A stretch of DNA of 64,000 bases from positions 7,267 through 71,266 of the forward strand of contig LNFF01000040.1 in NCBI GenBank assembly GCA_001464585.1, in the 5' to 3' direction. Position 1 is the stretch's first letter, and each line of letters opens with the position of its first letter. The notes beneath the pieces are model-generated. The model saw only the letters and a program-made list of their open reading frames with translations, searched no databases and was not told the origin of the DNA. This DNA comes from Gammaproteobacteria bacterium Ga0077554 (GTDB lineage Bacteria > Pseudomonadota > Gammaproteobacteria > Ga0077554 > Ga007554). Of this stretch, positions 5,093 to 63,380 are shown piece by piece. The position numbers were made by a program, and so were the translations under genes.

Positions 5093-5397
5093 GCGAACCA
5101 CCTCCACTTTGTTTGTAGCCACCCAATACCACAGGCCCCATAATTGATATTATTCTTAAGCTGGTTTGAACCGAGCTTGCAGATATATATCATGACCATT
5201 TTAGTAATGCAAGCACTAGCCCCATAATTCTGCAAGAGCACCTGGGTAAGACTGGGGGCGCCCCTATGTCAGTCAGGCGACGAGCCAAACTACCCCTTCC
5301 CTAGAGCGGTCGTATCATAGTATAAGATGTTCTCGGAAAAGTCCGTCAGATACGCTAAACTTATCATTAACAATGATCAATTATAAAGGGAAATCAA

Positions 5398-6971
5398 TGA
5401 TATCCAGAATTCCGGGCTACTCTTGGGGTATCCTGGCCATGCTTCTATGGGGCGCGGCAATTTTAGCCTTAGGCCTGGTACGGTTCACTCCCTATGGAAT
5501 GGATGAAGGCGCGGCACGTGGGCTATTATTAAACTGGTCTATTGTCGATGCTGTGGCTAACCCGATTGTTATTTTCGGGCTTCCGGATTTCCGGGCGTTA
5601 TTTTTTGTGCCGCTGGGCCTGTATTGGTCTGGCAGTATCGTGGCGGCGAAGGTTTATACGTTAATCATGGCCTTTTCAGCGATTTTGCTCTTGTATAACT
5701 GGAGCCGCCAAACTATCAGCAATGAAGCCGCATTGATTTCGAGCGCCTTGCTGGCGATCTCGCCCATTATGCTGACGCAGGCCGATGCCATTGGCGTCGG
5801 GCCTTATCTCTTGTTGGTTTTCGGCTTGGGGGTATGGCTGGACAAGACCTATCGCGCCTCGCCGCGCTCATCCGGCGGCTGGCTGTTCATGCAGTTATTG
5901 CTGGTGGGTATTTGTGTGACGCTGCACCCCATGGGGCTGGCGTATCCCCTGGCTTTATTATGGCGCTGGTACAAGGATTCATCGCAGGAGACGGTCAGCA
6001 TCAACCATAGAAAGCATATTCTGGTCGGTGTGCCGATTGCGGCGCTGGTGTTGCTGGTGATACGCGAAGGCTGGGGCCTGATGCATTGGTGGAGCAATCC
6101 CTTTACTGCGTTGAGCATGATTGTTGCCGTTGATCCTTCTGAAGAACCAGGCTTGGCGGGAGGAATTATTTTCGCCGCGCTGCTGTTGGTTATTGTGGTG
6201 ACAGAAAGGCGAGCGCTGCTCGGTAGCTTAATGGGTAATATGCTGCTGCTGGGGGTGCTGATTGGACTCACGGCGGCGGATGCGGCCTGGGCGCTGGTGG
6301 CGCTGGTATTGATTCTATACTATGGCATACCGCGCCTGATTGCGGTGAATCAGGCGTTCAATAAAAACAGCCTGATGGGTCAGCGCGGGTTGGTGATGGT
6401 GGTGATGATGATCGCGGCTACGGTATTTATGCTGAATCTCAAGGATTATCGGCAAGTGATACAGGACGATATTTTAAGCCCTGAGGATAAATTGATTCAA
6501 CTGCTCAGCCTGGAGGCGGCAGATACCAAGCAACCTTTTCGTGCCGCCAGCCAATGGCCGGGGCGCACCATGATTGCCTGTAAACGTGACGTGCTGCCAC
6601 TACCGCCACCCGCCAAAGAGGGTGAGGATTTCCTGAAAACAATCAAGGGCATTACTCATCTGATGTTTAACCCTTACCAGCCCACCTACCGCGAGTTGGG
6701 GCGCACCATTGCCCAATTGGGTGGGGCGACGCAAACACTGGCGCTACAGCAGGGCGGGGTGATCGTCAAAATACGTGAAGTGGCGGCGGCAGCAACGCCA
6801 CCGGCGGCGCATGCGCCCGCCAAGGATGGCGGAAGTGTCGGAAATGCAGGAGCAACTTTCCGACCGCCCGCCAAGGATGGGGAGAGCGAAGCGAGGGGGG
6901 TTGCTGAAAACGCAGGAGCGGTTTTACAGCCGCCCGCCACTGCTACTCCGCCAGAAATACCAACAAAATAA
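5398..6971 (+). CDS. polytopic membrane protein, candidate GT-C fold glycosyltransferase (ArnT/PMT-like) with a C-terminal repeat region
   Basis: More than 9 predicted TM helices. A 'YGMDEG' acidic motif lies in the first extracytoplasmic loop, as in the GT-C DE/DD motif. AAGGGA RBS before the ATG at 5398. The soluble C-terminus is Pro/Ala-rich. Confidence 0.4.
6790..6950 (+). repeat. degenerate ~50-60 nt tandem repeat inside the C-terminus of the 5398..6971 CDS
   Basis: 'ccgcccgccaaggatggcggaag...gcaggagc' is followed by 'ccgcccgccaaggatggggagag...gcaggagc', then a third partial 'ccgcccgcc' unit. This encodes repeated 'PPAKDG...NAGA' motifs. Confidence 0.45.
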
Positions 6972-12897: not shown

Positions 12898-13012
12898 CCA
12901 GATTTCTCCCGGCAACTGCTCCTGCGTTGCTCTACCTTCCGCCATCCATGGCGGTCGCCTTCGGTCGAAATGACAGTGAGGCTGTCATCCCGAACGAAGA
13001 GAGGGATCTTGG
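12898..13012. repeat. MITE/REP-like nested palindromic element (family A, 'tgtcatttcgaccgaagg...cgaaatgaca', plus a 'gtcatcccgaacg' module)
   Basis: Near-identical to copies at 21885, 25775, 49845 and 57507. Confidence 0.8.
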
Positions 13013-13029: not shown

Positions 13030-13266
13030 ACTGATGTCAGGAATGCGTTTCTCTACGGGAAAACCCTGATTCCTCCTCACATAATCCCTGATGTATGGGA
13101 TGAAATACCCAATAGCCGCGATGTAAATAATTTGTAACAATTTTGTCACATATGTCACGAAGCCGTAATGTTGAAGTGGTTTAAGCAGCGAAGCCCAGAT
13201 ATTTTGATGGCTATTTATTCATTAAACTCTGGTTAATGAACTTCAGCAGCGTGATGTGTGAAACAT
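13030..13266 (+). repeat. direct repeat copy 1 (237 bp, ~90% identical to 22150..22385): duplicated promoter region of the DASS transporter gene
   Basis: Hand alignment of 13030..13266 against 22150..22385 shows only scattered mismatches. Confidence 0.85.
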
Positions 13267-13362
13267 AGTGTATAGCCTGAAAAAAATAATGGGAACTGTT
13301 GACATTATCAATAATTGGGATTAAATTCCCATATAACAAGGATTGAACAGGGTCAACCACCT

Positions 13363-13458
13363 TACCGGCTTATAGCCGGGGCATAGCAGCGGGGGTGATC
13401 ACGCTCACCATCTGGTTGGGGTTGCCTGAACTCAATACGCAGGCACGCCTGGCTTTCA
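13363..13458 (+). repeat. direct repeat copy 1b (~96 bp, ~85% identical to 22489..22584): duplicated 5' coding fragment of the DASS transporter
   Basis: Encodes '...TIWLGLPELNTQARLAFIT', matching residues about 30-50 of the 22419..23990 protein. Confidence 0.8.
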
Positions 13459-13475
13459 TCACGGAGGATACTATC

Positions 13476-21884: not shown

Positions 21885-22039
21885 TGTCATTTCGACCGAA
21901 GGCGACCGCCATGGATGGCGGAAGGTAGAGCAACGCGCCGGGCAGGATGCCCAAGTGCGGTGGGCGCAGGGATGCGCAAGAACCGCCCGGAGCAGTTGCC
22001 GGGAGAAATCTTAAGATTCCTCGCTGCGCTCGGAATGAC
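21885..22039. repeat. MITE/REP-like element, family A with a 'cgaggaatcttaag...cggaatgaca' module
   Basis: Matches 12898, 25775 and 49845. Confidence 0.8.
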
Positions 22040-22149
22040 ATGGTTTATGTAACCTGTCCCAAGTTTATTAAGCGAACAGTATTGAGGCGCAACCCGGTGC
22101 GCCATTACTCGCCGAAGTGACATCCGCTCTGCCGTTTCTAATGGAAAAC

Positions 22150-22385
22150 ATGACATCAGCAATGAGTTTTCTACAGGAAAACCCTGATCTCCCTCCCCAC
22201 AATCCCTGACATATGGGATGAAATACCCAATAGGCGCGGCGTAAATAATTTGTAACAATTGTGTCACATATGTCACGAAGCCGTAATATTGAAGTGGTTT
22301 AAGCAGCAAAACCCAGATGTTTTGATGGACATTCATTCATTAAACTCTGGTCAATGAACTTCAGCAGCGTGATGTGTGAAACATA
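22150..22385 (+). repeat. direct repeat copy 2 (promoter region of the DASS transporter); a second block 22489..22584 matches 13363..13458
   Basis: See copy 1. Confidence 0.85.
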
Positions 22386-22418: not shown

Positions 22419-23990
22419 ATGATCATGCCTCAAGGAGTGAGCACCTTGCCAGCCACGGGGCACCCCGGCTGGCCCTTTAAGCAACATTACCGGCTCATAG
22501 CCGTGAGTGTAGCAGCGGTGGTGGTCACGCTCGCCATCTGGTTCGGGTTGCCGGAACTCAATACGCAGGCACGCCTGGCTTTCATTACTTTCAGCCTGGC
22601 GCTTATTGGATGGTGTTTCACCACGATCAATGACACCTACATCGCATTGGTGGCGGCGATAATTCCCAGCGTAATAGGTACTGGCGCGCCCAACGAATTT
22701 TTCGAGGCATTGGGTGACTCCATGATCTGGTTGCTGTTCGCGGCATTCATCATCGCCGCAGCGGTAAGTGCGTCCGGCCTCTCGCGCCGTTTGACGATGG
22801 CGGTGGTCAGTCGGGCGCACTCTGTAAATCAATTGTTTTATGCGTTGACCGCCGCGATTATCGCCACAGCTTTTGTCATTCCTTCCACATCCGGCCGCGC
22901 GGCGCTGATGTTGCCGATTTTCATTGCGCTGAGCACCACCATCAATGATGCGCGCATCACCAAAGCGTTGGCGCTGCTTTTCCCCACAGTGATCTTGTTG
23001 TCGGCGGTTGCGTCACTGATTGGTGCGGGCGCGCATCTGGTGACCGCCGATCTGCTGCTGCACATGACGGGACAGCGTATTGGCTTTTGGGAATGGATGG
23101 TATGGGGGCTACCGTTTGCGCTGGTGAGTTGTTTTGTTTCGACGTGGTTAATCCTGCGCCTGTTCCTGAACAAGGAAGAACAGCATAAGCCCGTGCAATT
23201 CAGCGTGGCGCAAATTGAAAAGGGCGACGATAGTTCTGATCCCAAGGCGTTTTCCAGGCAAGAGCGCTACATGTTAATACTGGTGGTGGCCCTGGTCACC
23301 TTGTGGGCCACGGAACCATTACACGGCGTCAACAATACCATGGTCGCCATCGTCGGAGCCTTGCTGGCGACGGCGCCAAAATTTGGCGTGTTTTCGTTCA
23401 TGGAGGCCGTCAAGAAAGTTGAGTGGAGCTTGCTGATTTTCCTGGCGGCGACCATGGAGATAGGCGAGTCCTTGATTGAGTCAGGTGGCGCCAAGTGGTT
23501 GGCGGATCACTTGTTCGAGATGTTGCAGGGTGGAGCCGCAACCTCTGCATGGCTTGTGGTTTCTGTTGTCGCGGCGGTTTCGTTGCTCTCGCATTTGCTC
23601 ATTAATTCGCGCACTGCGCGTTCCTCAGTGCTGGTTCCGCTGGTGATTTTGCTGGGCCTGTCGCTGGGGTTTCAACCGGCGGGGCTGGCGTTCCTCTCCA
23701 CTGCGGCAGCCGGTTTTTGTCTGACGTTGATGGTCAGCGCCAAACCCGTCGCCATGTTTGGCCAGATCGAGGCGTCCACCTATACCGCGCAGGATCTGTT
23801 GCGTTTGAGCGCTGTGCTGTTGCCGATACATTTTGTATTGCTCGTGGTATTCGCCTTTTTTGTCTGGCCTTATCTGGGGTTGGAGTTTCTGCCTGACCCG
23901 ACTGCAGTTCATCAGACACCGACGTGGACGGAATGGCAACCTTCACCCGCACAGACGTCGACGGTCGCTGTTGCTATGCAGGGTAAATAA
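22419..23990 (+). CDS. DASS/SLC13-type (ArsB/NhaD superfamily) anion or carboxylate transporter
   Basis: 523 aa with about 12-14 TM helices and an internal duplication pattern. GGAGAGG RBS. Confidence 0.65.
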   Translation: MIMPQGVSTLPATGHPGWPFKQHYRLIAVSVAAVVVTLAIWFGLPELNTQARLAFITFSLALIGWCFTTINDTYIALVAAIIPSVIGTGAPNEFFEALGDSMIWLLFAAFIIAAAVSASGLSRRLTMAVVSRAHSVNQLFYALTAAIIATAFVIPSTSGRAALMLPIFIALSTTINDARITKALALLFPTVILLSAVASLIGAGAHLVTADLLLHMTGQRIGFWEWMVWGLPFALVSCFVSTWLILRLFLNKEEQHKPVQFSVAQIEKGDDSSDPKAFSRQERYMLILVVALVTLWATEPLHGVNNTMVAIVGALLATAPKFGVFSFMEAVKKVEWSLLIFLAATMEIGESLIESGGAKWLADHLFEMLQGGAATSAWLVVSVVAAVSLLSHLLINSRTARSSVLVPLVILLGLSLGFQPAGLAFLSTAAAGFCLTLMVSAKPVAMFGQIEASTYTAQDLLRLSAVLLPIHFVLLVVFAFFVWPYLGLEFLPDPTAVHQTPTWTEWQPSPAQTSTVAVAMQGK

Positions 23991-24072
23991 AACCCGTAGC
24001 AAGCAAGCTGCGGGGTATTTCTCTGTCATTCCGAGCACCGCGAGGAATCTTAAGCAAGATCCCTCACTGCGC
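23991..24072. repeat. MITE-like element, family B ('gtcattccgagc..cgaggaatcttaag..agatccctcactgcg')
   Basis: Shares modules with 30243, 37690, 42058, 59956 and 63229. A related fragment 'gcgtagcgaggaacccaaacccaaagagattga' lies at 24095..24140 and again at 48205..48245. Confidence 0.75.
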
Positions 24073-25774: not shown

Positions 25775-25885
25775 TGTCATTTCGACCGAAGGCGACCGCC
25801 ATGGATGGCGGAAGGTAGAGCAACGCAGGAGCAGTTGCCGGGAGAAATCTTTTGCGTAGGATTTCTCCCTTCGGTCGAAATGACA
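25775..25885. repeat. MITE/REP-like element, family A (complete hairpin form)
   Basis: 'tgtcatttcgaccgaaggcgaccgccatggatggcggaaggtagagcaacgcaggagcagttgccgggagaaatc...gatttctcccttcggtcgaaatgaca'. Confidence 0.85.
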
Positions 25886-25919
25886 ATACCTGCGGAATAG
25901 ACAATACCGCGAAATGAAA

Positions 25920-30172: not shown

Positions 30173-30242
30173 TATTACGATCCCACAGGTTTATTCCAGA
30201 CCTGAGTAAAATTTGGCATTGTCATTAGTGTGCGCACAAAAC

Positions 30243-30412
30243 TTCAGGGATCTTCACAGCAAGCTGCGGGATATTTCCATGTCATTTCGACCCTCGCGAA
30301 AGCGGGGGGAGAAATCCTTGTCTCGAGTCTCGAACGAGGTGAGGGAACTTTGAGAGATCTTCCAGGATCCCTCACTTCGTTCGGGATGACAACTCCCAGT
30401 CATTTCGTCGCT
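30243..30412. repeat. composite MITE-like element (families A and B modules)
   Basis: 'agcaagctgcgggatatttccatgtcatttcgaccctcgcgaaagcgggggagaaatccttgtctcga...gagggaac..gagagatcttcc..gatccctcacttcgttcgggatgaca'. Confidence 0.75.
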
Positions 30413-30476
30413 CCTGTGCATCCATGCACATCGAACCATCGGGATGCCTGGTTTCCACGCCGTGAAAGAACGCTTA

Positions 30477-31463
30477 TCACTCATTCTCAGGTGCGCCGAA
30501 CAAATATTCAAACACATGCTTCCCCATGCCACGGCGCATACTGCGGCGGAAGGAATGGCCGCAGCGTGGAAGCGTATGCACAGCATAACGGGTGTCCAGG
30601 CCCCGATCATGTGCGGCGGCGTTCATGGCCTCTGTCCAGCGCTGGCCGCGCGTCAGCCGATCATGCCCTTGCTGTTCGATCACGCGCGCGGCCTTGTTGA
30701 GCGCTGTGCCTGGTTTGATGTCGCGCTCGCCCACCACTACGCTGCCCGGCACGCGCAGAAAGCGCTCGGGTTCGAAGCGCACATCCGGAAGGTCGCGCCG
30801 CAGTTTGATACCGCGTGGATAGCGCAGAGTGGCGTCGGGAAAGGTATACCATCCTGCTGCACCGACAATGAATTTCGCCACGCACTCGGGATAGGCCATG
30901 GCATAGCGATGCACGAATTGTCCGCCGCCGGAGAAGCCAAACAGGTACAGCTTGTCCCAATGTGCATCAAGGGTGGCCGCTCCTGCGCATCCATGCACGG
31001 CGCCGCCAGTGAGCATGCGCACTTCGGCAAGAATCTGGTGCAATGCCCGATCGGCGCGTTCTCCCCGGCCCGCTCTCCCCATCTGCTGGTATTTGGCAAA
31101 ACGATCTTCAGGAAACAAGGGCGCAATCAGCACTACGCCATAGCGTTCCGCGAAGGGCGCGAACAGGCGGGCGTGTTCCTCGGCATTGCGGGAAATACCG
31201 TGAACGGTGACGAACACCCGCGCCGTGCATGGACGCACAAGTGTCGCGGGAGGCAGGATGCCGTGAGCGACCACCCCGGCGGCGCATGGCGGTCGCTCTT
31301 GTGCGCCGTCCATGCACGACGGCAGATACAGGAAATAATGCTGGCGCGGGTCGTCGCGCAGGGTACGAAGCTGAATGTCGGGTTTGTGAGCTGACATTGC
31401 CGCAGTTTCGGTGAGGGCGGCGGTGGCATTGTCGTGGCGCATGGGCATTCCTGTGTTGACCAC
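30477..31463 (-). CDS. alpha/beta-hydrolase (esterase/dienelactone-hydrolase-like) with an in-frame palindromic-element insertion
   Basis: 'VFVTVHGISRN' and the nucleophile elbow 'GFSGGG'. Residues encoded by 31226..31315 ('CMDGAQERPPCAAGVVAHGILPPATLVRPCT') correspond to a 90-bp palindrome. Confidence 0.6.
   Translation of the reverse strand: MVNTGMPMRHDNATAALTETAAMSAHKPDIQLRTLRDDPRQHYFLYLPSCMDGAQERPPCAAGVVAHGILPPATLVRPCTARVFVTVHGISRNAEEHARLFAPFAERYGVVLIAPLFPEDRFAKYQQMGRAGRGERADRALHQILAEVRMLTGGAVHGCAGAATLDAHWDKLYLFGFSGGGQFVHRYAMAYPECVAKFIVGAAGWYTFPDATLRYPRGIKLRRDLPDVRFEPERFLRVPGSVVVGERDIKPGTALNKAARVIEQQGHDRLTRGQRWTEAMNAAAHDRGLDTRYAVHTLPRCGHSFRRSMRRGMGKHVFEYLFGAPENE
31226..31315. repeat. 90-bp palindromic element (family C: 'tgcatggacgcacaagtgtcgcgggaggcaggatgccg.gagcgacc...ggtcgctcttgtgcgccgtccatgca') embedded in a CDS
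   Basis: Perfect terminal inverted repeats. Related copies at 52486..52560 and 54290..54345. Confidence 0.7.
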
Positions 31464-37689: not shown

Positions 37690-37802
37690 TACCCCGCAGC
37701 AAGCTGCGGGGTATTTCCATGTCATTCCGAGCATCGCGAGGAATCTTAAAAGATCCCTCACTGCGTTCGGGATGACAGTTATTCTTTACGGTCGGGATGA
37801 CA
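37690..37802. repeat. MITE-like element, family B, between urtA and urtB
   Basis: 'ccccgcagcaagctgcggggtatttccatgtcattccgagcatcgcgaggaatcttaaaagatccctcactgcgttcgggatgaca...gtcgggatgaca'. Confidence 0.8.
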
Positions 37803-37861
37803 ATACACGCAGCAAGAAACCCGAAGGGATTGAAAGAAACCCTGGGAAACTCAGCGCATTC

Positions 37862-44066: not shown

Positions 44067-45773
44067 CTAAAACAGAAAATAGCGTTGCGCCAAAGGCAGC
44101 ACCGCAAGTGGTTCACAAGTCAGCAATACCCCGTCGGCGCGCACTTCATAAGTCTGCGAGTCAACCTCCATGTGAGGCTGATAACTGTTGTGAATCAGAT
44201 CAGATTTACGAATCGTGCGGACGTTCTTTACGCTTACCAGTTTTTTTGTCAAACCATACGTTTTGTCTATTCCTGTATCCAACGCCGCCTGCGAAACAAA
44301 ATGCACGCTGGTCGCCGTGCGTGCTCCACCCAGAGCGCCAAACATGGTGCGGTAATGCACTGGCTGTGGCGTTGGAATCGACGCGTTAGGGTCGCCCATC
44401 GGCACGGCGGCGATCATGCCGCCCTTGATAATCATGGAGGGCTTGGCGCCAAAAAATGCCGGACGCCATAATACGATGTCCGCTAATTTACCTGCTTCTA
44501 TCGAACCGACTTCATGGCTGATGCCGTGGGTAATGGCGGGATTGATAGTGTATTTTGCGATATAGCGTTTGATGCGGAAATTATCGTGGCGTGAATTGTC
44601 TTCGGCCAGCGCGCCGCGTTGCACTTTCATCTTGTGCGCAGTTTGCCAGGTGCGGGTAATCACTTCACCGACGCGGCCCATCGCCTGTGAGTCCGACGAA
44701 ATCATGCTGAACGCACCCAGGTCATGCAGGATATCTTCAGCGGCAATGGTTTCGCGGCGTATCCGCGATTCAGCAAACGCCACATCTTCAGCAATCGCAG
44801 GGTCAAGGTGATGACATACCATCAACATATCAAGATGCTCGTCAACAGTATTGACAGTATAGGGGCGCGTGGGGTTAGTTGACGATGGCAGCACATTCGC
44901 TTCGCCGCACGCCTTGATAATATCCGGCGCATGACCACCGCCCGCTCCTTCAGTATGGTAGGTATGAATGGTGCGCCCTTTGAAAGCGGCGAGTGTGTCT
45001 TCGACAAATCCCGACTCATTCAAGGTATCGGTGTGGATGGCAATCTGCACATCGTATTTTTCAGCGACATTTAAGCAATTATCAATCGCTGCTGGCGTCG
45101 TGCCCCAATCTTCGTGCAGCTTCAAACCCATCGCGCCTGCTTCAATTTGCTCTTCCAGTGGTTCCGGCAGACTGGCGTTGCCTTTACCGAGAAAACCAAT
45201 ATTCATTGGCAATGCTTCAGCCGCTTGCAGCATGCGCTGCATATACCACGGCCCGGGCGTGCAGGTGGTGGCATTGGTGCCTGCTGCAGGGCCGGTGCCG
45301 CCACCGATCATGGTGGTCACACCCGACATCAGGGCGCCTTCAATTTGTTGTGGGCAGATGAAATGAATATGCGCATCTATCGCGCCGGGCGTGGCAATGA
45401 GCCCTTCACCGGCAATAATTTCTGTGCCTGGCCCAATCACAATCGTGACGTTGGGCTGAATGTCCGGGTTGCCGGCTTTACCTATGCCAGAAATACGGCC
45501 ATTTTTCAGGCCAATATCGGCTTTGACAATGCCCCAATAATCCATGATCAGCGCATTGGTGATAACCGTATCGGCCACTTCATGCGCGCAACGCTGGCCC
45601 TGGCCCATTCCGTCACGAATAACTTTGCCACCACCAAATTTAACTTCTTCACCGTAGACGGTGTGATCAACCTCTACTTCAATCCATAATTCGGTATCAC
45701 CTAAACGCACCCGGTCACCCACGGTGGGACCATACATTTCCATGTAAGCGCGGCGGTCAATTGTTTTCATCAT
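44067..45773 (-). CDS. ureC: urease alpha subunit UreC
   Basis: 568 aa with the urease active-site motifs ('MVCHHLD', 'GGGHAPD', carbamylated-Lys region). Confidence 0.95.
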
Positions 45774-46093: not shown

Positions 46094-46125
46094 CTCGCTA
46101 GGGAATCGCTGATTAAATCAAAATA

Positions 46126-46208
46126 TGTCATTTCGACCAACGGGAGAAATCCTTGTCTCGAACGACTGTGAGAGATCTTCAAGATTTCTCCCGTTGGTCA
46201 AAATGACA
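46126..46208. repeat. MITE-like hairpin element inserted between ureA and ureB
   Basis: 'tgtcatttcgaccaacgggagaaatccttgtctcgaacgactgtgagagatcttcaagatttctcccgttggtcaaaatgaca'. Confidence 0.8.
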
Positions 46209-46225
46209 CATTAATCAGCGATTCA

Positions 46226-49809: not shown

Positions 49810-49844
49810 GGATGTTACCTTAAGGAACCTGTGATTTATTAGCC

Positions 49845-50000
49845 TGTCATTTCGACCGCAGGCGACCGCCATGGATGGCGGAAGGTAGAGCAACGCAGGA
49901 GCAGTTGCCGGGAGAAATCCTTGTCTCGAACGTAAAGAATAACTGTCATCCCGAACGTAGTGAGGGATCTTCAGGATTTCTCCCTTCGGTCGAAATGACA
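49845..50000. repeat. composite MITE-like element (family A plus 'gtcatcccgaacgtagtgagggatcttcagg' module) between sdhB and sdhE
   Basis: Matches the 25775 and 12898 copies. Confidence 0.85.
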
Positions 50001-50015
50001 CATGTTAAAGTTTCG

Positions 50016-52484: not shown

Positions 52485-52892
52485 TTACGCCGTGCATGGA
52501 TGCACAAGTGTTGCGAGAGGCAGGATGCCGGAAGCGACCGTTACGATAGATAGCGGGGTCGGTATCAGCATGAGAACACGCAATACCCACAACCCCATGG
52601 CAAACAGCCCCAGTGCAACAGACGTCAGCAATATAAAACGGATCACTGGTGGGCGCGCATAATCCATAATCACATCGCGCAACCCCACCCAGGCGTGCAT
52701 CAGCAGCGCGGCAAAAAATACGCTGGTGGCGACGGCGATAAACGGCAAGCCCATCCACTCCCGCCATGCCGGGTACGACGTCGGCGCATCCAGCAGCAGA
52801 TACAGGCCGAACATTACAATATAAACGGCCAAATATACCGCGCTGACACGTTGCATCAACCAGGCGCGCGAACCGTGGGCGCGCCAGCTCAT
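52485..52892 (-). CDS. sdhD: succinate dehydrogenase membrane anchor subunit SdhD, with a repeat-encoded C-terminal tail
   Basis: 3 TM helices homologous to E. coli SdhD. The last ~20 codons lie within the family-C palindromic element. Confidence 0.75.
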   Translation of the reverse strand: MSWRAHGSRAWLMQRVSAVYLAVYIVMFGLYLLLDAPTSYPAWREWMGLPFIAVATSVFFAALLMHAWVGLRDVIMDYARPPVIRFILLTSVALGLFAMGLWVLRVLMLIPTPLSIVTVASGILPLATLVHPCTA

Positions 52893-53278: not shown

Positions 53279-53396
53279 CGACGCCTGATTTATCTGGCTT
53301 TTAATGGAGCCAGCCCGTAGTCCTGCTAATGTTATAATGAACAACCGTGCCAACACTAACATTTCCCGTGCAACACTAACAGGTTATACCACGACC

Positions 53397-54500
53397 ATGA
53401 ACGCTGACTGGAACACTTTTTTGCAACAGGCGGGCGCTGCCATTATAGATGGGGTCGTGGCAGGCCGCGTTCGTGACTTTGGCCAGCCCGTCGACGAGCT
53501 ACAGGCGCCGAATAACGGCAATATCCTCGCTGACGTATCACACATGGGTTTGATTGCAGTGCAGGGCGCAGATGCTGCAACCTTCCTGCAAGGCCAGCTT
53601 ACCAATGACATCCGCGAAGTATCTGCAACACACAGCCAGATCAGCGCCTATTGCAGCCCCAAGGGGCGCATGTTGGCCTGCATGCGCATCTTTATGCGTG
53701 ATGACACGTATTACCTGGGCCTGCCGCGCGATATCCTCGATGCCACCTTGCAGCGTTTGCGCATGTTTGTGCTGCGCGCCAAGGTCACGCTCAGCGATGC
53801 CAGCGATACCCTGGTGTATATCGGGTATGCCGGTGAGCGCGCTGCGGCGACACTGGAGGTGGCTCTGGGCGCCATCCCCGCAAACGTCAACGATGTCACC
53901 CAGGGCAACGGACTGACAGTGCTGCGCCTGCCTGGCTCAGTGCCGCGCTTTGGCATCATCGGCGAAGTTGCAGCAATACAAACCCTGTGGAACACGCTAC
54001 GTGTCAGCGCCCAACCAGTAGGCGCGAACGTGTGGGATTTGCTCGATATCCGCGCCGGCATCCCCACCGTCTACGCCGCCACCCGCGATGCGTTTGTGCC
54101 ACAAATGGCGAATCTCGATACGATCGGCGGCATCAGTTTCAAAAAGGGCTGTTACACCGGCCAGGAAATTGTAGCGCGCATGCATTACCTGGGCACGCTC
54201 AAACGCCGCATGTTCCTGGCGAAAGTTATAGCGGACGTGGCGCCCCAGCCTGGCGATGCGTTATATGCCTCGGGCACAGACGACGCACAGGGATGTGTTA
54301 GTGTCGCAGGAGGCAGGATGCCGGGAGCGGCCAACGTGCAAAGCATCGGCACTGTCGTCACAGCACAGCGCGTGTCACGCGGGGAATATGCAGCATTGGC
54401 GGTAGTGGATATTAAAAGCGCAGCAACGGGTCAGATCCACCTGTACACAGTGACGGGCACCGCGCTCACTTTTATTCCCCTGCCTTATACGCCTGAATAA
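53397..54500 (+). CDS. ygfZ: folate-binding Fe-S cluster repair/tRNA-modification protein YgfZ
   Basis: 'KGCYTGQEIVARMHYLG' signature. Divergent from sdhC/sdhE-ygfX as in enterobacteria. Confidence 0.8.
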   Translation: MNADWNTFLQQAGAAIIDGVVAGRVRDFGQPVDELQAPNNGNILADVSHMGLIAVQGADAATFLQGQLTNDIREVSATHSQISAYCSPKGRMLACMRIFMRDDTYYLGLPRDILDATLQRLRMFVLRAKVTLSDASDTLVYIGYAGERAAATLEVALGAIPANVNDVTQGNGLTVLRLPGSVPRFGIIGEVAAIQTLWNTLRVSAQPVGANVWDLLDIRAGIPTVYAATRDAFVPQMANLDTIGGISFKKGCYTGQEIVARMHYLGTLKRRMFLAKVIADVAPQPGDALYASGTDDAQGCVSVAGGRMPGAANVQSIGTVVTAQRVSRGEYAALAVVDIKSAATGQIHLYTVTGTALTFIPLPYTPE

Positions 54501-57433: not shown

Positions 57434-57506
57434 CGCATTGCCAGGGTAACCTGTGACAACCTGGCCTGGCAACCTGCCGGACTTTCTCCGGCAGCACCCC
57501 CCATAC

Positions 57507-57564
57507 TGTCATTTCGACCGAAGGCGACCGCCATCCATGGCGGTCGCCTTCGGTCGAAATGACA
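57507..57564. repeat. 58-bp perfect hairpin element (family A core)
   Basis: 'tgtcatttcgaccgaaggcgaccgccat|ccatggcggtcgccttcggtcgaaatgaca', 3' of the aspA-like gene. Confidence 0.85.
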
Positions 57565-57620
57565 CGGTTCGCGTAGCACGGCGTGCGCGCCAGCATTCCC
57601 TGCCGACAACACATTCCCCC

Positions 57621-59338: not shown

Positions 59339-59938
<600 letters not shown>

Positions 59939-59955
59939 ACGGAGGATGATTATTT

Positions 59956-60011
59956 TGTCATTCCGAGCGTAGTGAGGAATCTTAAGATGTCTCACTGCGT
60001 TCGACATGACA
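59956..60011. repeat. MITE-like element, family B short form
   Basis: 'tgtcattccgagcgtagtgaggaatcttaagatgtctcactgcgttcgacatgaca'. Confidence 0.8.
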
Positions 60012-60038
60012 GGGTGTTGCACCTCGAATGGCGTAAAG

Positions 60039-63144: not shown

Positions 63145-63228
63145 TGCTTGCTCTCCTCACGACGGACGTGCTTATGCAGGCCGCATTACCCGATATCCCT
63201 GTCAGGACGGTGTTTTTATGGATATTTC

Positions 63229-63380
63229 TGTCATGCCGAATGTAGTGAGGGATCTTAAAAGATCTCTCAAAGATCTCTCACATTCGTTCGAGACTCGAGA
63301 CAAGGATTTCTCACTACGTTCGAAATGACAACGCCTGGCTACGCTCGAAATGACAATGCGTCACTTTGTTCGTAACAACA
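63229..63380. repeat. cluster of MITE-like modules (families A and B)
   Basis: 'tgtcatgccgaatgtagtgagggatcttaaaagatctctcaaagatctctcacattcgttcgagactcgagacaaggatttctcactacgttcgaaatgaca..cgctcgaaatgaca'. Confidence 0.8.

What the first reader, a model, noticed from the sequence alone, without database searches (positions are those of the whole stretch)
31226..31315. In-frame insertion of a 90-bp palindromic element into an alpha/beta-hydrolase gene (RPE-like behaviour)
The hydrolase ORF reads through a perfect-armed palindrome ('tgcatggacgcacaag...cttgtgcgccgtccatgca'). The palindrome contributes about 30 extra residues ('CMDGAQERPPCAAGVVAHGILPPATLVRPCT') just N-terminal to the conserved 'VFVTVHG' strand, without a stop or frameshift. 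This mirrors Rickettsia palindromic elements, which insert into protein-coding genes and are tolerated as surface loops. A second partial arm-like sequence at 30960..31000 may be another remnant.
Basis: seen in the sequence. Interest (0 to 1): 0.65.

Follow-up and report, generated by a model that had tools for sequence, protein, structure and literature searches.

The report
Hairpin repeats inserted in-frame in genes
The "palindrome" inside this hydrolase gene is two separate, oppositely oriented copies of a 51-base (17-codon) hairpin repeat. In this uncultured bacterial lineage the repeat sits in frame inside many genes, much like the palindromic elements of Rickettsia, so it is a new example of a known but uncommon phenomenon.

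Summary
The hydrolase ORF (30477..31442, minus strand) reads through an imperfect inverted repeat at 31222-31319. Orthologue DNA shows this is not one 90-bp element. It is a 30-nt internally deleted copy (31290-31319) and a full 51-nt copy (31222-31272) of one repeat family, in opposite orientation, flanking 14 nt of native sequence. One orthologue has neither copy, one has only the short copy, and two have only the long copy.

The unit is 17 codons long, has no stop codon in any of six frames, and folds into two hairpins. The second hairpin covaries between taxa. Both insert sites fall in low-confidence loops of an otherwise confident alpha/beta-hydrolase model.

The same unit is read in frame in SdhD (C-terminal tail) and YgfZ in this window. 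It also appears in hydrogenase-cluster and hydrolase genes of sister MAGs as 51/99/102-nt presence/absence differences, and a 39-nt remnant lies in the porin gene. In this lineage 33 of 34 judged copies lie inside long ORFs. In Thiodiazotropha the same unit is intergenic; in Xanthomonadales the picture is mixed. No transposase was found.

Verdict: an undescribed REP/RPE-like family, a new member of a known kind.

The parts
30477..31442 (-). Host gene: alpha/beta-hydrolase, 321 aa as P0001 (328 aa from the upstream GTG at 31463). Closest solved folds are PahZ1 and the LpqC PHB-depolymerase-like protein. The gene is intact.
   Evidence: ORF list. 1261 homologues, with P0001 100% identical. The invariant residues S178 (in GFSGGG), D248 and H303 are present. 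AF2 core pLDDT is above 90. Foldseek hits 6ve6_A at E 3e-19 and 3d0k at 1e-16.
31222..31272 (+). Full 51-nt unit of the repeat family: GCCGTGCATGGACGCACAAGTGTCGCGGGAGGCAGGATGCCGTGAGCGACC. It is antisense to the gene and encodes V64-T80 (VVAHGILPPATLVRPCT).
   Evidence: A 51-nt gap in orthologues P0003, P0002, P0006 and P0007; present in P0004 and P0005. nhmmer E 3e-15. Copies at 52488 and 54281.
31276..31289 (-). Native hydrolase sequence between the two units (CCATGCGCCGCCGG in gene orientation; residues P59-G63). It is not part of any element.
   Evidence: It aligns to CCGTGCGTCGCCGG in the insert-free orthologue P0003 and to equivalent sequence in all seven orthologues. Distant homologues have about 7 residues here.
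31290..31319 (-). 30-nt short unit, sense to the gene: TCGTGCATGGACGGCGCACAAGAGCGACCG. The head and tail of the family are kept and hairpin 2 is deleted. It encodes S49-P58 (SCMDGAQERP).
   Evidence: A 30-nt gap in P0003-P0007. P0002 has a 27-nt version at the same place. Head and tail match the family.
30960..31001 (-). Second insertion site in the hydrolase. It holds a 27-nt short unit, GCCGTGCATGGATGCGCAGGAGCGGCC (30975-31001), plus a roughly 12-15-nt remnant. Together they add 13 residues (within GAVHGCAGAATLDAHW).
   Evidence: 39 extra nt relative to P0003. P0004 has a 99-nt composite at the same site and P0002 has 12 nt. The short form equals the full unit minus the 24 nt between its two GGATGC repeats.
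30402..30433 (-). Short family copy in the intergenic repeat cluster downstream of the hydrolase stop codon.
52489..52539 (+). Full unit forming the last 17 codons of SdhD (ORF 52485..52892, minus strand; tail ASGILPLATLVHPCTA followed by the stop). It lies 5 nt before the sdhA start.
   Evidence: SdhD orthologues at 91-93% identity end at ...PLSIS (117 aa). Others carry one to several units (135-173 aa).
54282..54332 (+). Diverged unit, sense to the gene, inside the YgfZ-like folate-binding protein (ORF 53304..54500, plus strand). It encodes DDAQGCVSVAGGRMPGA.
   Evidence: The 17-aa block is present only in the window protein and P0122. It is absent in P0123-P0131 at 76-82% identity by BLASTP.

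Best explanation
The feature is two separate insertions of a small non-autonomous repeat into the coding sequence of a working alpha/beta-hydrolase gene. The repeat is REP-like and has two hairpins.

The family unit is 51 nt: GCCGTGCAKGGAYGCAC-AAGTG-(stem, GCAGGATGC-type loop, stem)-CC. That is exactly 17 codons, normally with no stop codon in any of the six frames. An insertion anywhere in a gene, in either orientation, therefore adds 17 residues instead of truncating the protein.

Copies survive where the added peptide is harmless. Here that means two surface loops: one before the VFVTVHG strand and one before the nucleophile strand. Slippage between the unit's internal GGATGC repeats, or deletion of hairpin 2, yields 27-30-nt derivatives that are still multiples of three.

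One full unit and one short unit landed tail-to-tail 14 nt apart and together mimic a 90-bp palindrome.

Shown: foreign origin, the exact boundaries, presence/absence among orthologues, loop location, hairpin covariation, and the lineage-wide in-frame occurrence.

Inferred: the units are, or recently were, mobilised in trans. The likeliest agent is a single-strand-DNA Y1 (RAYT/IS200-like) transposase that inserts 3' of a CGCC-like target. Selection then filters insertions to tolerant loops and protein termini.
For: Orthologue comparison:
- P0003, P0006 and P0007 have neither insert. P0002 has only the short one. P0004 and P0005 have only the long one.
- The central 14 nt are homologous to native sequence in all seven orthologues.

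Same unit in unrelated genes:
- In this window: the SdhD tail and YgfZ.
- In the hydrogenase cluster (a Fer4_22 iron-sulfur protein and a NAD_binding_1 protein) and the hydrolase of MAG CAMTYI01, as 51-, 102- and 99-nt in-frame indels against sister MAG JAMPIW01, which is 89% identical. A separate 39-nt remnant is present in the JAMPIW01 porin gene and absent from CAMTYI01.
- Tandem arrays have a 51-nt period.

Census: 33 of 34 judged copies in the window-like lineage lie inside ORFs of at least 200 codons. Random positions give 75%. In Thiodiazotropha it is 2 of 35.

Six-frame openness: 86 of 101 full-length copies are open in all six frames, against 4.4% of random window 51-mers and 8-16% of dinucleotide shuffles.

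Structure of the unit: 92.6% of cells pair. All 4 pairs of the outer helix and 3 of 5 pairs of the inner helix of hairpin 2 show changes on both sides. There are 46 compensatory cells against 14 +/- 2.7 in shuffles, and slid controls collapse.

Protein model: pLDDT is above 90 in the core and below 50 only at the termini and at 54-79 and 155-168, which are the two insert sites lying between core elements.

Target: CGCC or TGCC is native immediately 5' of the insertion point in the empty alleles of 4 of 7 filled/empty comparisons.
Against: - No transposase was found. There is no RAYT-like ORF in the window or in 841 kb of related loci. The only hit is a truncated N-terminal remnant in L112, with no link to this family.
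- No GTAG or CGTC tag, no terminal inverted repeats and no clear target-site duplication. The mobilisation step therefore rests on analogy.
- The CGCC flank is absent in 3 of 7 comparisons.
- Six-frame openness also holds for the intergenic copies in Thiodiazotropha. It may be a by-product of G+C-rich hairpins rather than an adaptation to coding DNA.
- The long unit sits at the same nucleotide in two clades but is absent from closer relatives of each. This needs either site-specific re-insertion, or repeated precise loss, or allele exchange. I cannot tell which.
- Translation of the inserts has not been observed.
Confidence: 0.8

Rival explanations
1. One reading: a single roughly 90-bp palindromic mobile element (RPE- or MITE-like) inserted once, and the whole palindrome is the element.
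For: The region folds as one long hairpin. REP dimers are common as intragenic inserts encoding 20-30 residues in other bacteria (PMC3733652).
Against: - The two arms occur separately in orthologues: P0002 has the short arm only, P0004 and P0005 the long arm only.
- The central 14 nt align with native sequence of insert-free orthologues, and distant homologues keep about 7 residues there.
- Elsewhere the family unit is a 51-nt monomer.
- The two arms differ in length: 30 nt against 51 nt.
Confidence: 0.05
2. The copies spread without a transposase. Short GCC/CGCC microhomologies let replication template-switching, or repair synthesis or gene conversion from another copy, write the hairpin module into new sites. 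Precise loss occurs by slippage.
For: - No transposase was found.
- The native empty sites resemble the element's own head: CCGCCGTGC in P0003 and GCCGCCGT at site 2.
- Boundaries are ambiguous by 2-3 nt of CC/GCC.
- Many internally deleted forms are explained by slippage between GGATGC repeats.
- Nested insertions occur at hairpin loops.
Against: - The 51-nt unit length is uniform, including in tandem arrays.
- The same unit occurs in distant orders.
- The hairpin covaries with structure maintained.

All three fit a protein-recognised mobile unit better than sporadic repair errors.
Confidence: 0.12
3. The inserts are native, selected protein segments: a lineage-specific loop or peptide motif with a function, and not selfish DNA.
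For: - The reading frames are kept.
- The peptides recur in different proteins (GILPPATLVxPCT, GCTSVAGGRMPGA).
- Insert-bearing alleles persist in several MAGs.
Against: - The same DNA is read in at least three different frames and in both orientations in different genes, so no single peptide is conserved.
- It also occurs intergenically.
- Close orthologues lack it.
- The inserts model as low-confidence loops.
Confidence: 0.03

Closest known systems
Rickettsia palindromic elements (RPEs; Ogata et al. 2000, 2002; summarised in PMC10969869 and PMC3733652)
   Same: Both are dispersed palindromic repeats found in frame inside many unrelated functional genes. The inserts fall in places compatible with the protein fold, and close relatives differ in presence or absence. 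These features were tested here.
   Different: - RPEs are about 100-150 bp, or CGTC-tagged short REPs for RPE-4 and RPE-6. This unit is 51 nt, has two hairpins and has no CGTC tag.
- The host here is an uncultured free-living bacterium from drinking water and soil, not an obligate intracellular alphaproteobacterium. Its SdhD and hydrolase relatives are betaproteobacterial-type.
- About half of the RPEs of the coding-prone families are intragenic. Here 33 of 34 judged copies are.
- No sequence comparison with RPEs was run.
Intragenic REPs of the GTAG and CGTC super-families (Di Nocera, De Gregorio and Rocco 2013, PMC3733652)
   Same: Both are short G+C-rich stem-loop repeats. Both occur as single units, inverted dimers (including tail-to-tail), clusters and tandem groups. 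Some copies lie inside ORFs of known proteins and encode 20-30 residues. The transposase is unknown for one super-family.
   Different: - Neither a GTAG nor a CGTC tag is present. The conserved 5' end is (C)GCC, and GTG[T/C/G] precedes hairpin 2.
- The unit has two hairpins and 51 nt, against a single 20-40-bp stem-loop.
- Neither the 14-mers nor the encoded peptides occur in that paper, its supplements or the searched library.
REPINs and RAYT transposases (Bertels and Rainey 2011; Nunvar et al. 2010)
   Same: Two inverted REP-like units separated by a short spacer fold into one long hairpin. The presumed mobilisation is by a Y1 single-strand transposase in trans.
   Different: Here the two units are not one replicative unit: they occur separately in orthologues and the spacer is native gene sequence. 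No RAYT flanked by the units was found.
IS200/IS605-derived palindrome-associated elements (PATEs) and MITEs
   Same: The units are small, non-autonomous and rich in hairpins. They lack a clear target-site duplication and are often found 3' of a short conserved motif (CGCC here), as with IS608-type insertion.
   Different: - At 51 nt the unit is far shorter than typical MITEs or PATEs (70-300+ bp).
- It has no terminal inverted repeats.
- No parent IS was identified.

Membership tests
Rickettsia palindromic elements (RPE) | A dispersed palindromic repeat present at many loci of the genome | tested here: met
   Six copies or remnants in the 64-kb window. Dozens of copies in related MAG loci.
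Rickettsia palindromic elements (RPE) | Inserted in frame in functional protein-coding genes; orthologues without the insert exist | tested here: met
   Hydrolase, SdhD, YgfZ, hydrogenase-cluster genes and porin.
Rickettsia palindromic elements (RPE) | Size about 100-150 bp, or a CGTC-tagged short REP for RPE-4/6, and sequence homology to an RPE family | tested here: not met
   The unit is 51 nt with no CGTC tag. Homology to RPE consensus sequences was not tested because no RPE sequences were available. The host is not Rickettsiales.
REP (GTAG/CGTC-tagged repetitive extragenic palindromes) | A short G+C-rich imperfect palindrome, with the stem-loop maintained by compensatory change | tested here: met
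   92.6% of cells pair. 7 of 14 pairs change on both sides. 46 compensatory cells against 14 expected.
REP (GTAG/CGTC-tagged repetitive extragenic palindromes) | An unpaired GTAG (GTRG) or CGTC tetranucleotide at one end | tested here: not met
   The 5' end is CGCC/GCC. Hairpin 2 is preceded by AAGTG plus T, C or G. Only the Stenotrophomonas subfamily reads GTGG.
REP (GTAG/CGTC-tagged repetitive extragenic palindromes) | Association with a RAYT gene flanked by the repeats (a REPtron) | tested here: inconclusive
   A motif scan and tblastn with 8 RAYT/TIRYT sequences found no RAYT in the window plus 116 loci (841 kb). The only hit is a truncated remnant in L112 that is not flanked by the units. 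Whole genomes could not be searched.
REPIN | Two inverted REPs plus a spacer that replicate as a single unit | tested here: not met
   The halves occur separately in P0002 and in P0004/P0005. The spacer is native sequence.
MITE | Terminal inverted repeats of 15-30 bp and a target-site duplication | tested here: not met
   The head (GCCGTGCA) and tail (AGCGACC) are not inverted copies of each other. Filled/empty junctions show at most 2-3 nt of ambiguous CC/GCC.
IS200/IS605-type (Y1 transposase) non-autonomous element | Hairpin ends, no target-site duplication, and insertion 3' of a specific short target that flanks the left end | tested here: inconclusive
   Hairpins and the lack of a duplication are met. 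CGCC or TGCC is native 5' of the insertion point in 4 of 7 empty alleles. The enzyme was not found.

The most novel reading that the evidence does not exclude
A 17-codon hairpin module with no stops in any of six frames has become an almost exclusively intragenic repeat in one uncultured betaproteobacteria-like lineage: 33 of 34 judged copies, more coding-biased than RPEs. The cause would be either preferential insertion into coding DNA (a CGCC/GCC-type target) or a ratchet in which only precise deletions survive inside genes. On this reading the module is an ongoing generator of new protein loops and C-terminal tails across core metabolism (SdhD, YgfZ, hydrogenase-cluster proteins, hydrolases), and the same module lives as an ordinary intergenic REP in other Gammaproteobacteria.
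Probability: 0.35. Interest if true: 0.7.

Novelty: new member of a known kind. Interest (0 to 1): 0.5.

Why it matters
In-frame "selfish DNA in proteins" is best documented in Rickettsia, and only sporadically for REPs elsewhere. This case gives:
- a compact, well-delimited family (51 nt, 17 codons) in free-living environmental bacteria;
- natural filled and empty alleles of several genes at nucleotide resolution;
- nested and tandem forms;
- a contrast between intragenic and intergenic lifestyles of the same unit in different taxa.

That makes two questions testable with existing metagenomes and MAGs. One is how such elements choose or survive in coding DNA. The other is how often they seed new loops and tails.

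There is also a practical warning. These inserts inflate protein lengths, create spurious antisense ORFs and could mislead annotation or alignment-based phylogeny in these lineages.

Tried and rejected
- **Rfam.** Searches of the region, the whole window and nine related loci found no known RNA family on the element. The only hits were a chance SNORD57 match below threshold, a tRNA, and 5_ureB_sRNA inside ureB.
- **Literature strings.** Searches for the hairpin 14-mers and the encoded peptides found no paper. The supplements of PMC3733652 do not contain them either.
- **Peptide census.** phmmer with the 33-residue insert region against 1.84 billion representative proteins gave two unrelated repeat proteins. 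The query is too short, so this says nothing about spread.
- **Transposase.** A regex for HUH...Y..NP and tblastn with 8 RAYT/TIRYT sequences from PMC3733652 found only a truncated remnant in L112. ORFs next to Thiodiazotropha copies, and between an inverted pair in L050, are unrelated housekeeping-type ORFs and no recurring transposase appears.
- **YgfZ structure.** The model was poor overall (mean pLDDT 54.6). It is only weakly informative: the insert coincides with the low-confidence stretch 325-343 between two strands.
- **Taxonomy.** The source organism could not be named. The records say only metagenome (LNFM01) or "Gammaproteobacteria bacterium". The named relatives of its SdhD and hydrolase are betaproteobacterial-type: Casimicrobiaceae, Pollutimonas, Nitrosospira, Nitrotoga.
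- **Rejected readings.** A single 90-bp element; native sequence; and assembly artefact. The artefact reading fails because the same kind of insert occurs at the same sites in independent MAGs from other studies.
Full report
**1. The observation**

The minus-strand ORF 30477..31463 encodes an alpha/beta-hydrolase and reads straight through an inverted repeat at about 31221-31321. The database protein P0001 starts at 31442 and is 321 aa.

The arms are imperfect. The right arm carries a 3-nt bulge (cttgtgcgCCGtccatgca). The repeat finder reports the pairing as a 15-nt arm pair at 93%, an 8-nt pair at 100%, and an inner 11-nt pair at 91%.

As a single strand the region folds at -62.8 kcal/mol, against -50.3 +/- 3.5 for dinucleotide shuffles (z = -3.56; none of 200 shuffles fold as well). 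The arm 16-mer recurs four times in the window at up to 3 mismatches, against 1.05 expected. The left 52 nt recur at 52488 (90%) and 54281 (77%). So the sequence feature is real and belongs to a repeat family.

**2. What orthologues show**

The protein has 1261 homologues, typically about 282 aa. In the alignment the insert-free orthologue P0003 reads LYLPPCVAGARVFVTVHG. It is 79% identical by BLASTP and about 92% identical in DNA over shared columns. The window protein reads LYLPSCMDGAQERPPCAAGVVAHGILPPATLVRPCTARVFVTVHG.

I fetched the DNA of six orthologues and aligned it. In gene orientation the window has:
- CTGCCG, then a 30-nt block;
- CCATGCGCCGCCGG;
- a 51-nt block, then GGCGCGGGTG.

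P0003, P0006 and P0007 have neither block. P0002 has only the first block, in a 27-nt version. P0004 and P0005 have only the second. The 14 nt in the middle are homologous to native sequence in all seven orthologues, and distant homologues keep about 7 residues there.

The "90-bp palindrome" is therefore two separate insertions in opposite orientation (tail-to-tail) around native codons P59-G63. They add 10 residues (S49-P58) and 17 residues (V64-T80).

A second site, 30960-31001, carries 39 extra nt (13 residues, within GAVHGCAGAATLDAHW). P0004 has a 99-nt composite at the same site and P0002 has 12 nt.

**3. The repeat family**

Comparing all copies defines a 51-nt unit: GCC-GTGCAKGGAYGCAC-AAGTG-stem-internal loop-stem-GGA-stem-internal loop-stem-CC. 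The window example is GCCGTGCATGGATGCACAAGTGTTGCGAGAGGCAGGATGCCGGAAGCGACC at 52489-52539.

- Tandem arrays have a 51-nt period (L066, L047).
- Short forms of 27-30 nt keep the head and tail. The site-2 form equals the unit minus the 24 nt between its two GGATGC repeats. The 30-nt form at 31290-31319 lacks hairpin 2.
- Larger forms are nested. A 102-nt insert in L003 is one unit inside another. The 99-nt composite is a unit with a 48-nt module of a second family inserted in its loop.
- On 30 diverse units, 92.6% of cells pair. All four pairs of the outer helix and three of five pairs of the inner helix of hairpin 2 change on both sides. There are 46 compensatory cells against 14 +/- 2.7 in shuffles, and sliding the partners collapses pairing to 8-50%. 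The hairpin, not its sequence, is what is maintained.
- The canonical unit has no stop codon in any of six frames: 86 of 101 full-length copies, against 4.4% of random 51-mers from the window and 8-16% of shuffles. The other repeat families in the window do contain stops.

No Rfam family matches the unit. No paper in the library contains its sequence or its peptides.

**4. The behaviour is lineage-wide**

*In this window.* The unit at 52489-52539 supplies the last 17 codons of SdhD (ASGILPLATLVHPCTA, then the stop). It sits 5 nt upstream of the sdhA start. SdhD orthologues at 91-93% identity stop at ...PLSIS (117 aa), while others carry one to several units (135-173 aa). The diverged unit at 54282-54332 is read in the opposite orientation inside YgfZ (DDAQGCVSVAGGRMPGA). 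Only the window protein and P0122 have it. Other YgfZ orthologues carry other units at other positions, for example VAPGILPPATLVLPCTS in P0123. The same DNA is thus translated in at least three frames and both orientations.

*Between two sister MAGs (89% identical).* In-frame 51-, 102- and 99-nt units are present in L003 and absent from L004. They lie in two genes of the hydrogenase cluster (a Fer4_22 iron-sulfur protein and a NAD_binding_1 protein, next to the [NiFe] hydrogenase subunit genes) and in the hydrolase. A 39-nt remnant is present in the L004 porin gene and absent from L003.

It had found 108 stretches in Candidatus Thiodiazotropha, Stenotrophomonas, Lysobacterales, Rhodanobacter, Pseudoxanthomonas, Sedimenticola, Acidiferrobacterales and several unnamed "Gammaproteobacteria" MAGs.

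*Coding context.* "Inside a long ORF" means within an ORF of at least 200 codons and at least 20 codons from each end.

| Group | Copies inside a long ORF | Random positions in the same loci |
|---|---|---|
| Window-like lineage | 33 of 34 | 75% |
| Thiodiazotropha | 2 of 35 | 64% |
| Xanthomonadales | 6 of 11 | 89% |

One Stenotrophomonas copy that I inspected sits just 3' of a gene. Long spurious ORFs in these G+C-rich genomes may inflate the Xanthomonadales count. The head's identity across orders is partly ascertainment, because the scan required it.

**5. Placement in the protein**

The AlphaFold2 model built from 22 sequences has pTM 0.80 and pLDDT above 90 through the core. pLDDT is below 50 only at the termini and at 54-79 and 155-168. 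These two stretches are the insert sites. The first lies between strand 38-46 and strand 83-87. The second lies between helix 137-151 and strand 172-177, which leads into the GFSGGG motif.

The closest solved folds are poly(aspartic acid) hydrolase PahZ1 (6ve6, E 3e-19) and LpqC, a PHB-depolymerase-like protein (3d0k). The invariant S178, D248 and H303 are intact. Reading them as the catalytic triad is an inference from alpha/beta-hydrolase knowledge.

The YgfZ model was too poor to use.

**6. How it most likely works**

Shown:
- The DNA is foreign, modular, hairpin-forming and present or absent among close relatives.
- All intragenic lengths seen are multiples of three: 27, 30, 39, 51, 99 and 102 nt.
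- The inserts fall in loops or at termini.

Inferred:
- The 51-nt unit is a non-autonomous mobile element whose length (17 codons) and lack of stops make any intragenic insertion non-truncating.
- Selection removes insertions in structured regions.
- Slippage between internal repeats trims copies in steps that keep the frame.
- For the mobilising enzyme I favour a Y1 (RAYT/IS200-like) single-strand transposase acting in trans. The reasons are the hairpin architecture, the lack of inverted termini and of a target duplication, insertion into other copies' loops, and a CGCC/TGCC motif native 5' of the insertion point in 4 of 7 empty alleles.

No such gene was found in the window or in 841 kb of loci. 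The only hit is a truncated remnant in L112. This step therefore remains an analogy. Template-switch or repair copying through GCC microhomology is a live rival.

The gene tree has two clades about 20% apart in DNA. The long unit sits at the same nucleotide in the window (clade 1) and in P0004/P0005 (clade 2), but not in their closer relatives. This requires two site-specific gains, or one gain with at least three precise losses, or allele exchange. This is unresolved.

**7. Comparison with known families**

Functionally this matches Rickettsia palindromic elements and the "intragenic REPs" catalogued by Di Nocera et al. (PMC3733652). That paper reports single units, inverted dimers and clusters inside ORFs encoding 20-30 residues, and notes that CGTC REPs lack a known transposase. 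A recent MITE review still singles out RPEs as the extreme case (PMC10969869).

Membership fails on defining features:
- no GTAG or CGTC tag;
- two hairpins and 51 nt instead of one 20-40-bp stem-loop or a 100-150-bp RPE;
- no inverted termini or target duplication (so not a MITE);
- the two halves are not one replicative unit (so not a REPIN).

I file it as an undescribed REP/RPE-like family, a new member of a known kind. The most novel feature is the near-exclusive intragenic location in one lineage. That needs a whole-genome census to confirm.

**8. Dead ends**

- The peptide census by phmmer was uninformative.
- Neighbouring ORFs of the Thiodiazotropha copies show no recurring transposase.
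- The source organism could not be named beyond metagenome or "Gammaproteobacteria bacterium". Named relatives of its proteins are betaproteobacterial-type.

Noticed in passing
window 5373-6971 (+), especially 6808-6854: A 532-aa membrane protein ends in a tail (...PAKDGGSVGNAGATFRPPAKDGESEARGVAENAGA...) encoded by a second repeat family (GGCGACCGCCATGGATGGCGGAAGGTAGAGCAACGCAGGAGCAGTTGCC type). The same 48-nt module is nested inside a family-C unit in L003 8443-8490. So a second family may also be read in frame.
   Followed up: partly
window 30210-30440: In orthologous loci (L001-L004, L115) a Porin_O_P gene lies between the hydrolase and the histidine kinase. It is missing in the window, and its place is taken by a cluster of repeats from at least three families. 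L116 also lacks the porin gene.
   Followed up: partly
window 12900-13012, 21885-22047, 24002-24064, 25775-25892, 37698-37809, 46120-46215, 49823-50007, 57505-57565, 59934-60018, 63228-63362: Dense clusters of other palindromic repeat families (TGTCATTTCGACCGAAGG...; TGTCATTCCGAGC...GAGGAATCTT), with up to 10 copies each. They contain stop codons in some frames. Their coding context was not checked.
   Followed up: no
L112 164-300: An N-terminal remnant of a RAYT/IS200-like Y1 transposase: 31% identity to E. coli b0228 over 58 aa, E 6e-4. It is preceded by the hairpin GTCGGGTTAGCGTAGCGTAACCCGAC and followed by a run of CCTCCAAT repeats. No link to the 51-nt family is shown.
   Followed up: partly
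L007-L111 (Candidatus Thiodiazotropha loci), e.g. L045, L012: In Thiodiazotropha MAGs the 53-nt unit is the 5' part of a longer, highly conserved intergenic repeat of about 150 nt (...ctattccgcgtcgttgcgc|unit|cttgccctgcaccaccacaagcgcacccttcacgctgtccaactgatctttttaggtt). There are at least dozens of copies in some of these MAGs.
   Followed up: partly
L008, L013, L041, L063, L074, L089, L114 (Stenotrophomonas): The unit is always preceded by a conserved GGTAGGGTCGGTTCCCAAACGAC-like flank. It occurs in only a few copies per genome. In L063 it lies just 3' of an enolase-phosphatase-like gene.
   Followed up: partly
window 45335-45617: An Rfam 5_ureB_sRNA hit (104 bits). It probably just reflects conserved ureB coding sequence in a urease cluster. 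I did not check the ORF there. The same family hits L012.
   Followed up: no
window 13049-13267 vs 22167-22385; 13384-13462 vs 22510-22588: Two direct repeats, 89% and 92% identical, about 9.1 kb apart. They look like paralogous coding segments rather than mobile repeats.
   Followed up: no
L004 10991-11041; L003 9051-9116: Family units lie at the very 5' end of the porin genes next to the hydrolase. In L004 the annotated start codon is followed immediately by unit-encoded residues, so either the N-terminus is element-derived or the start is mis-called.
   Followed up: no
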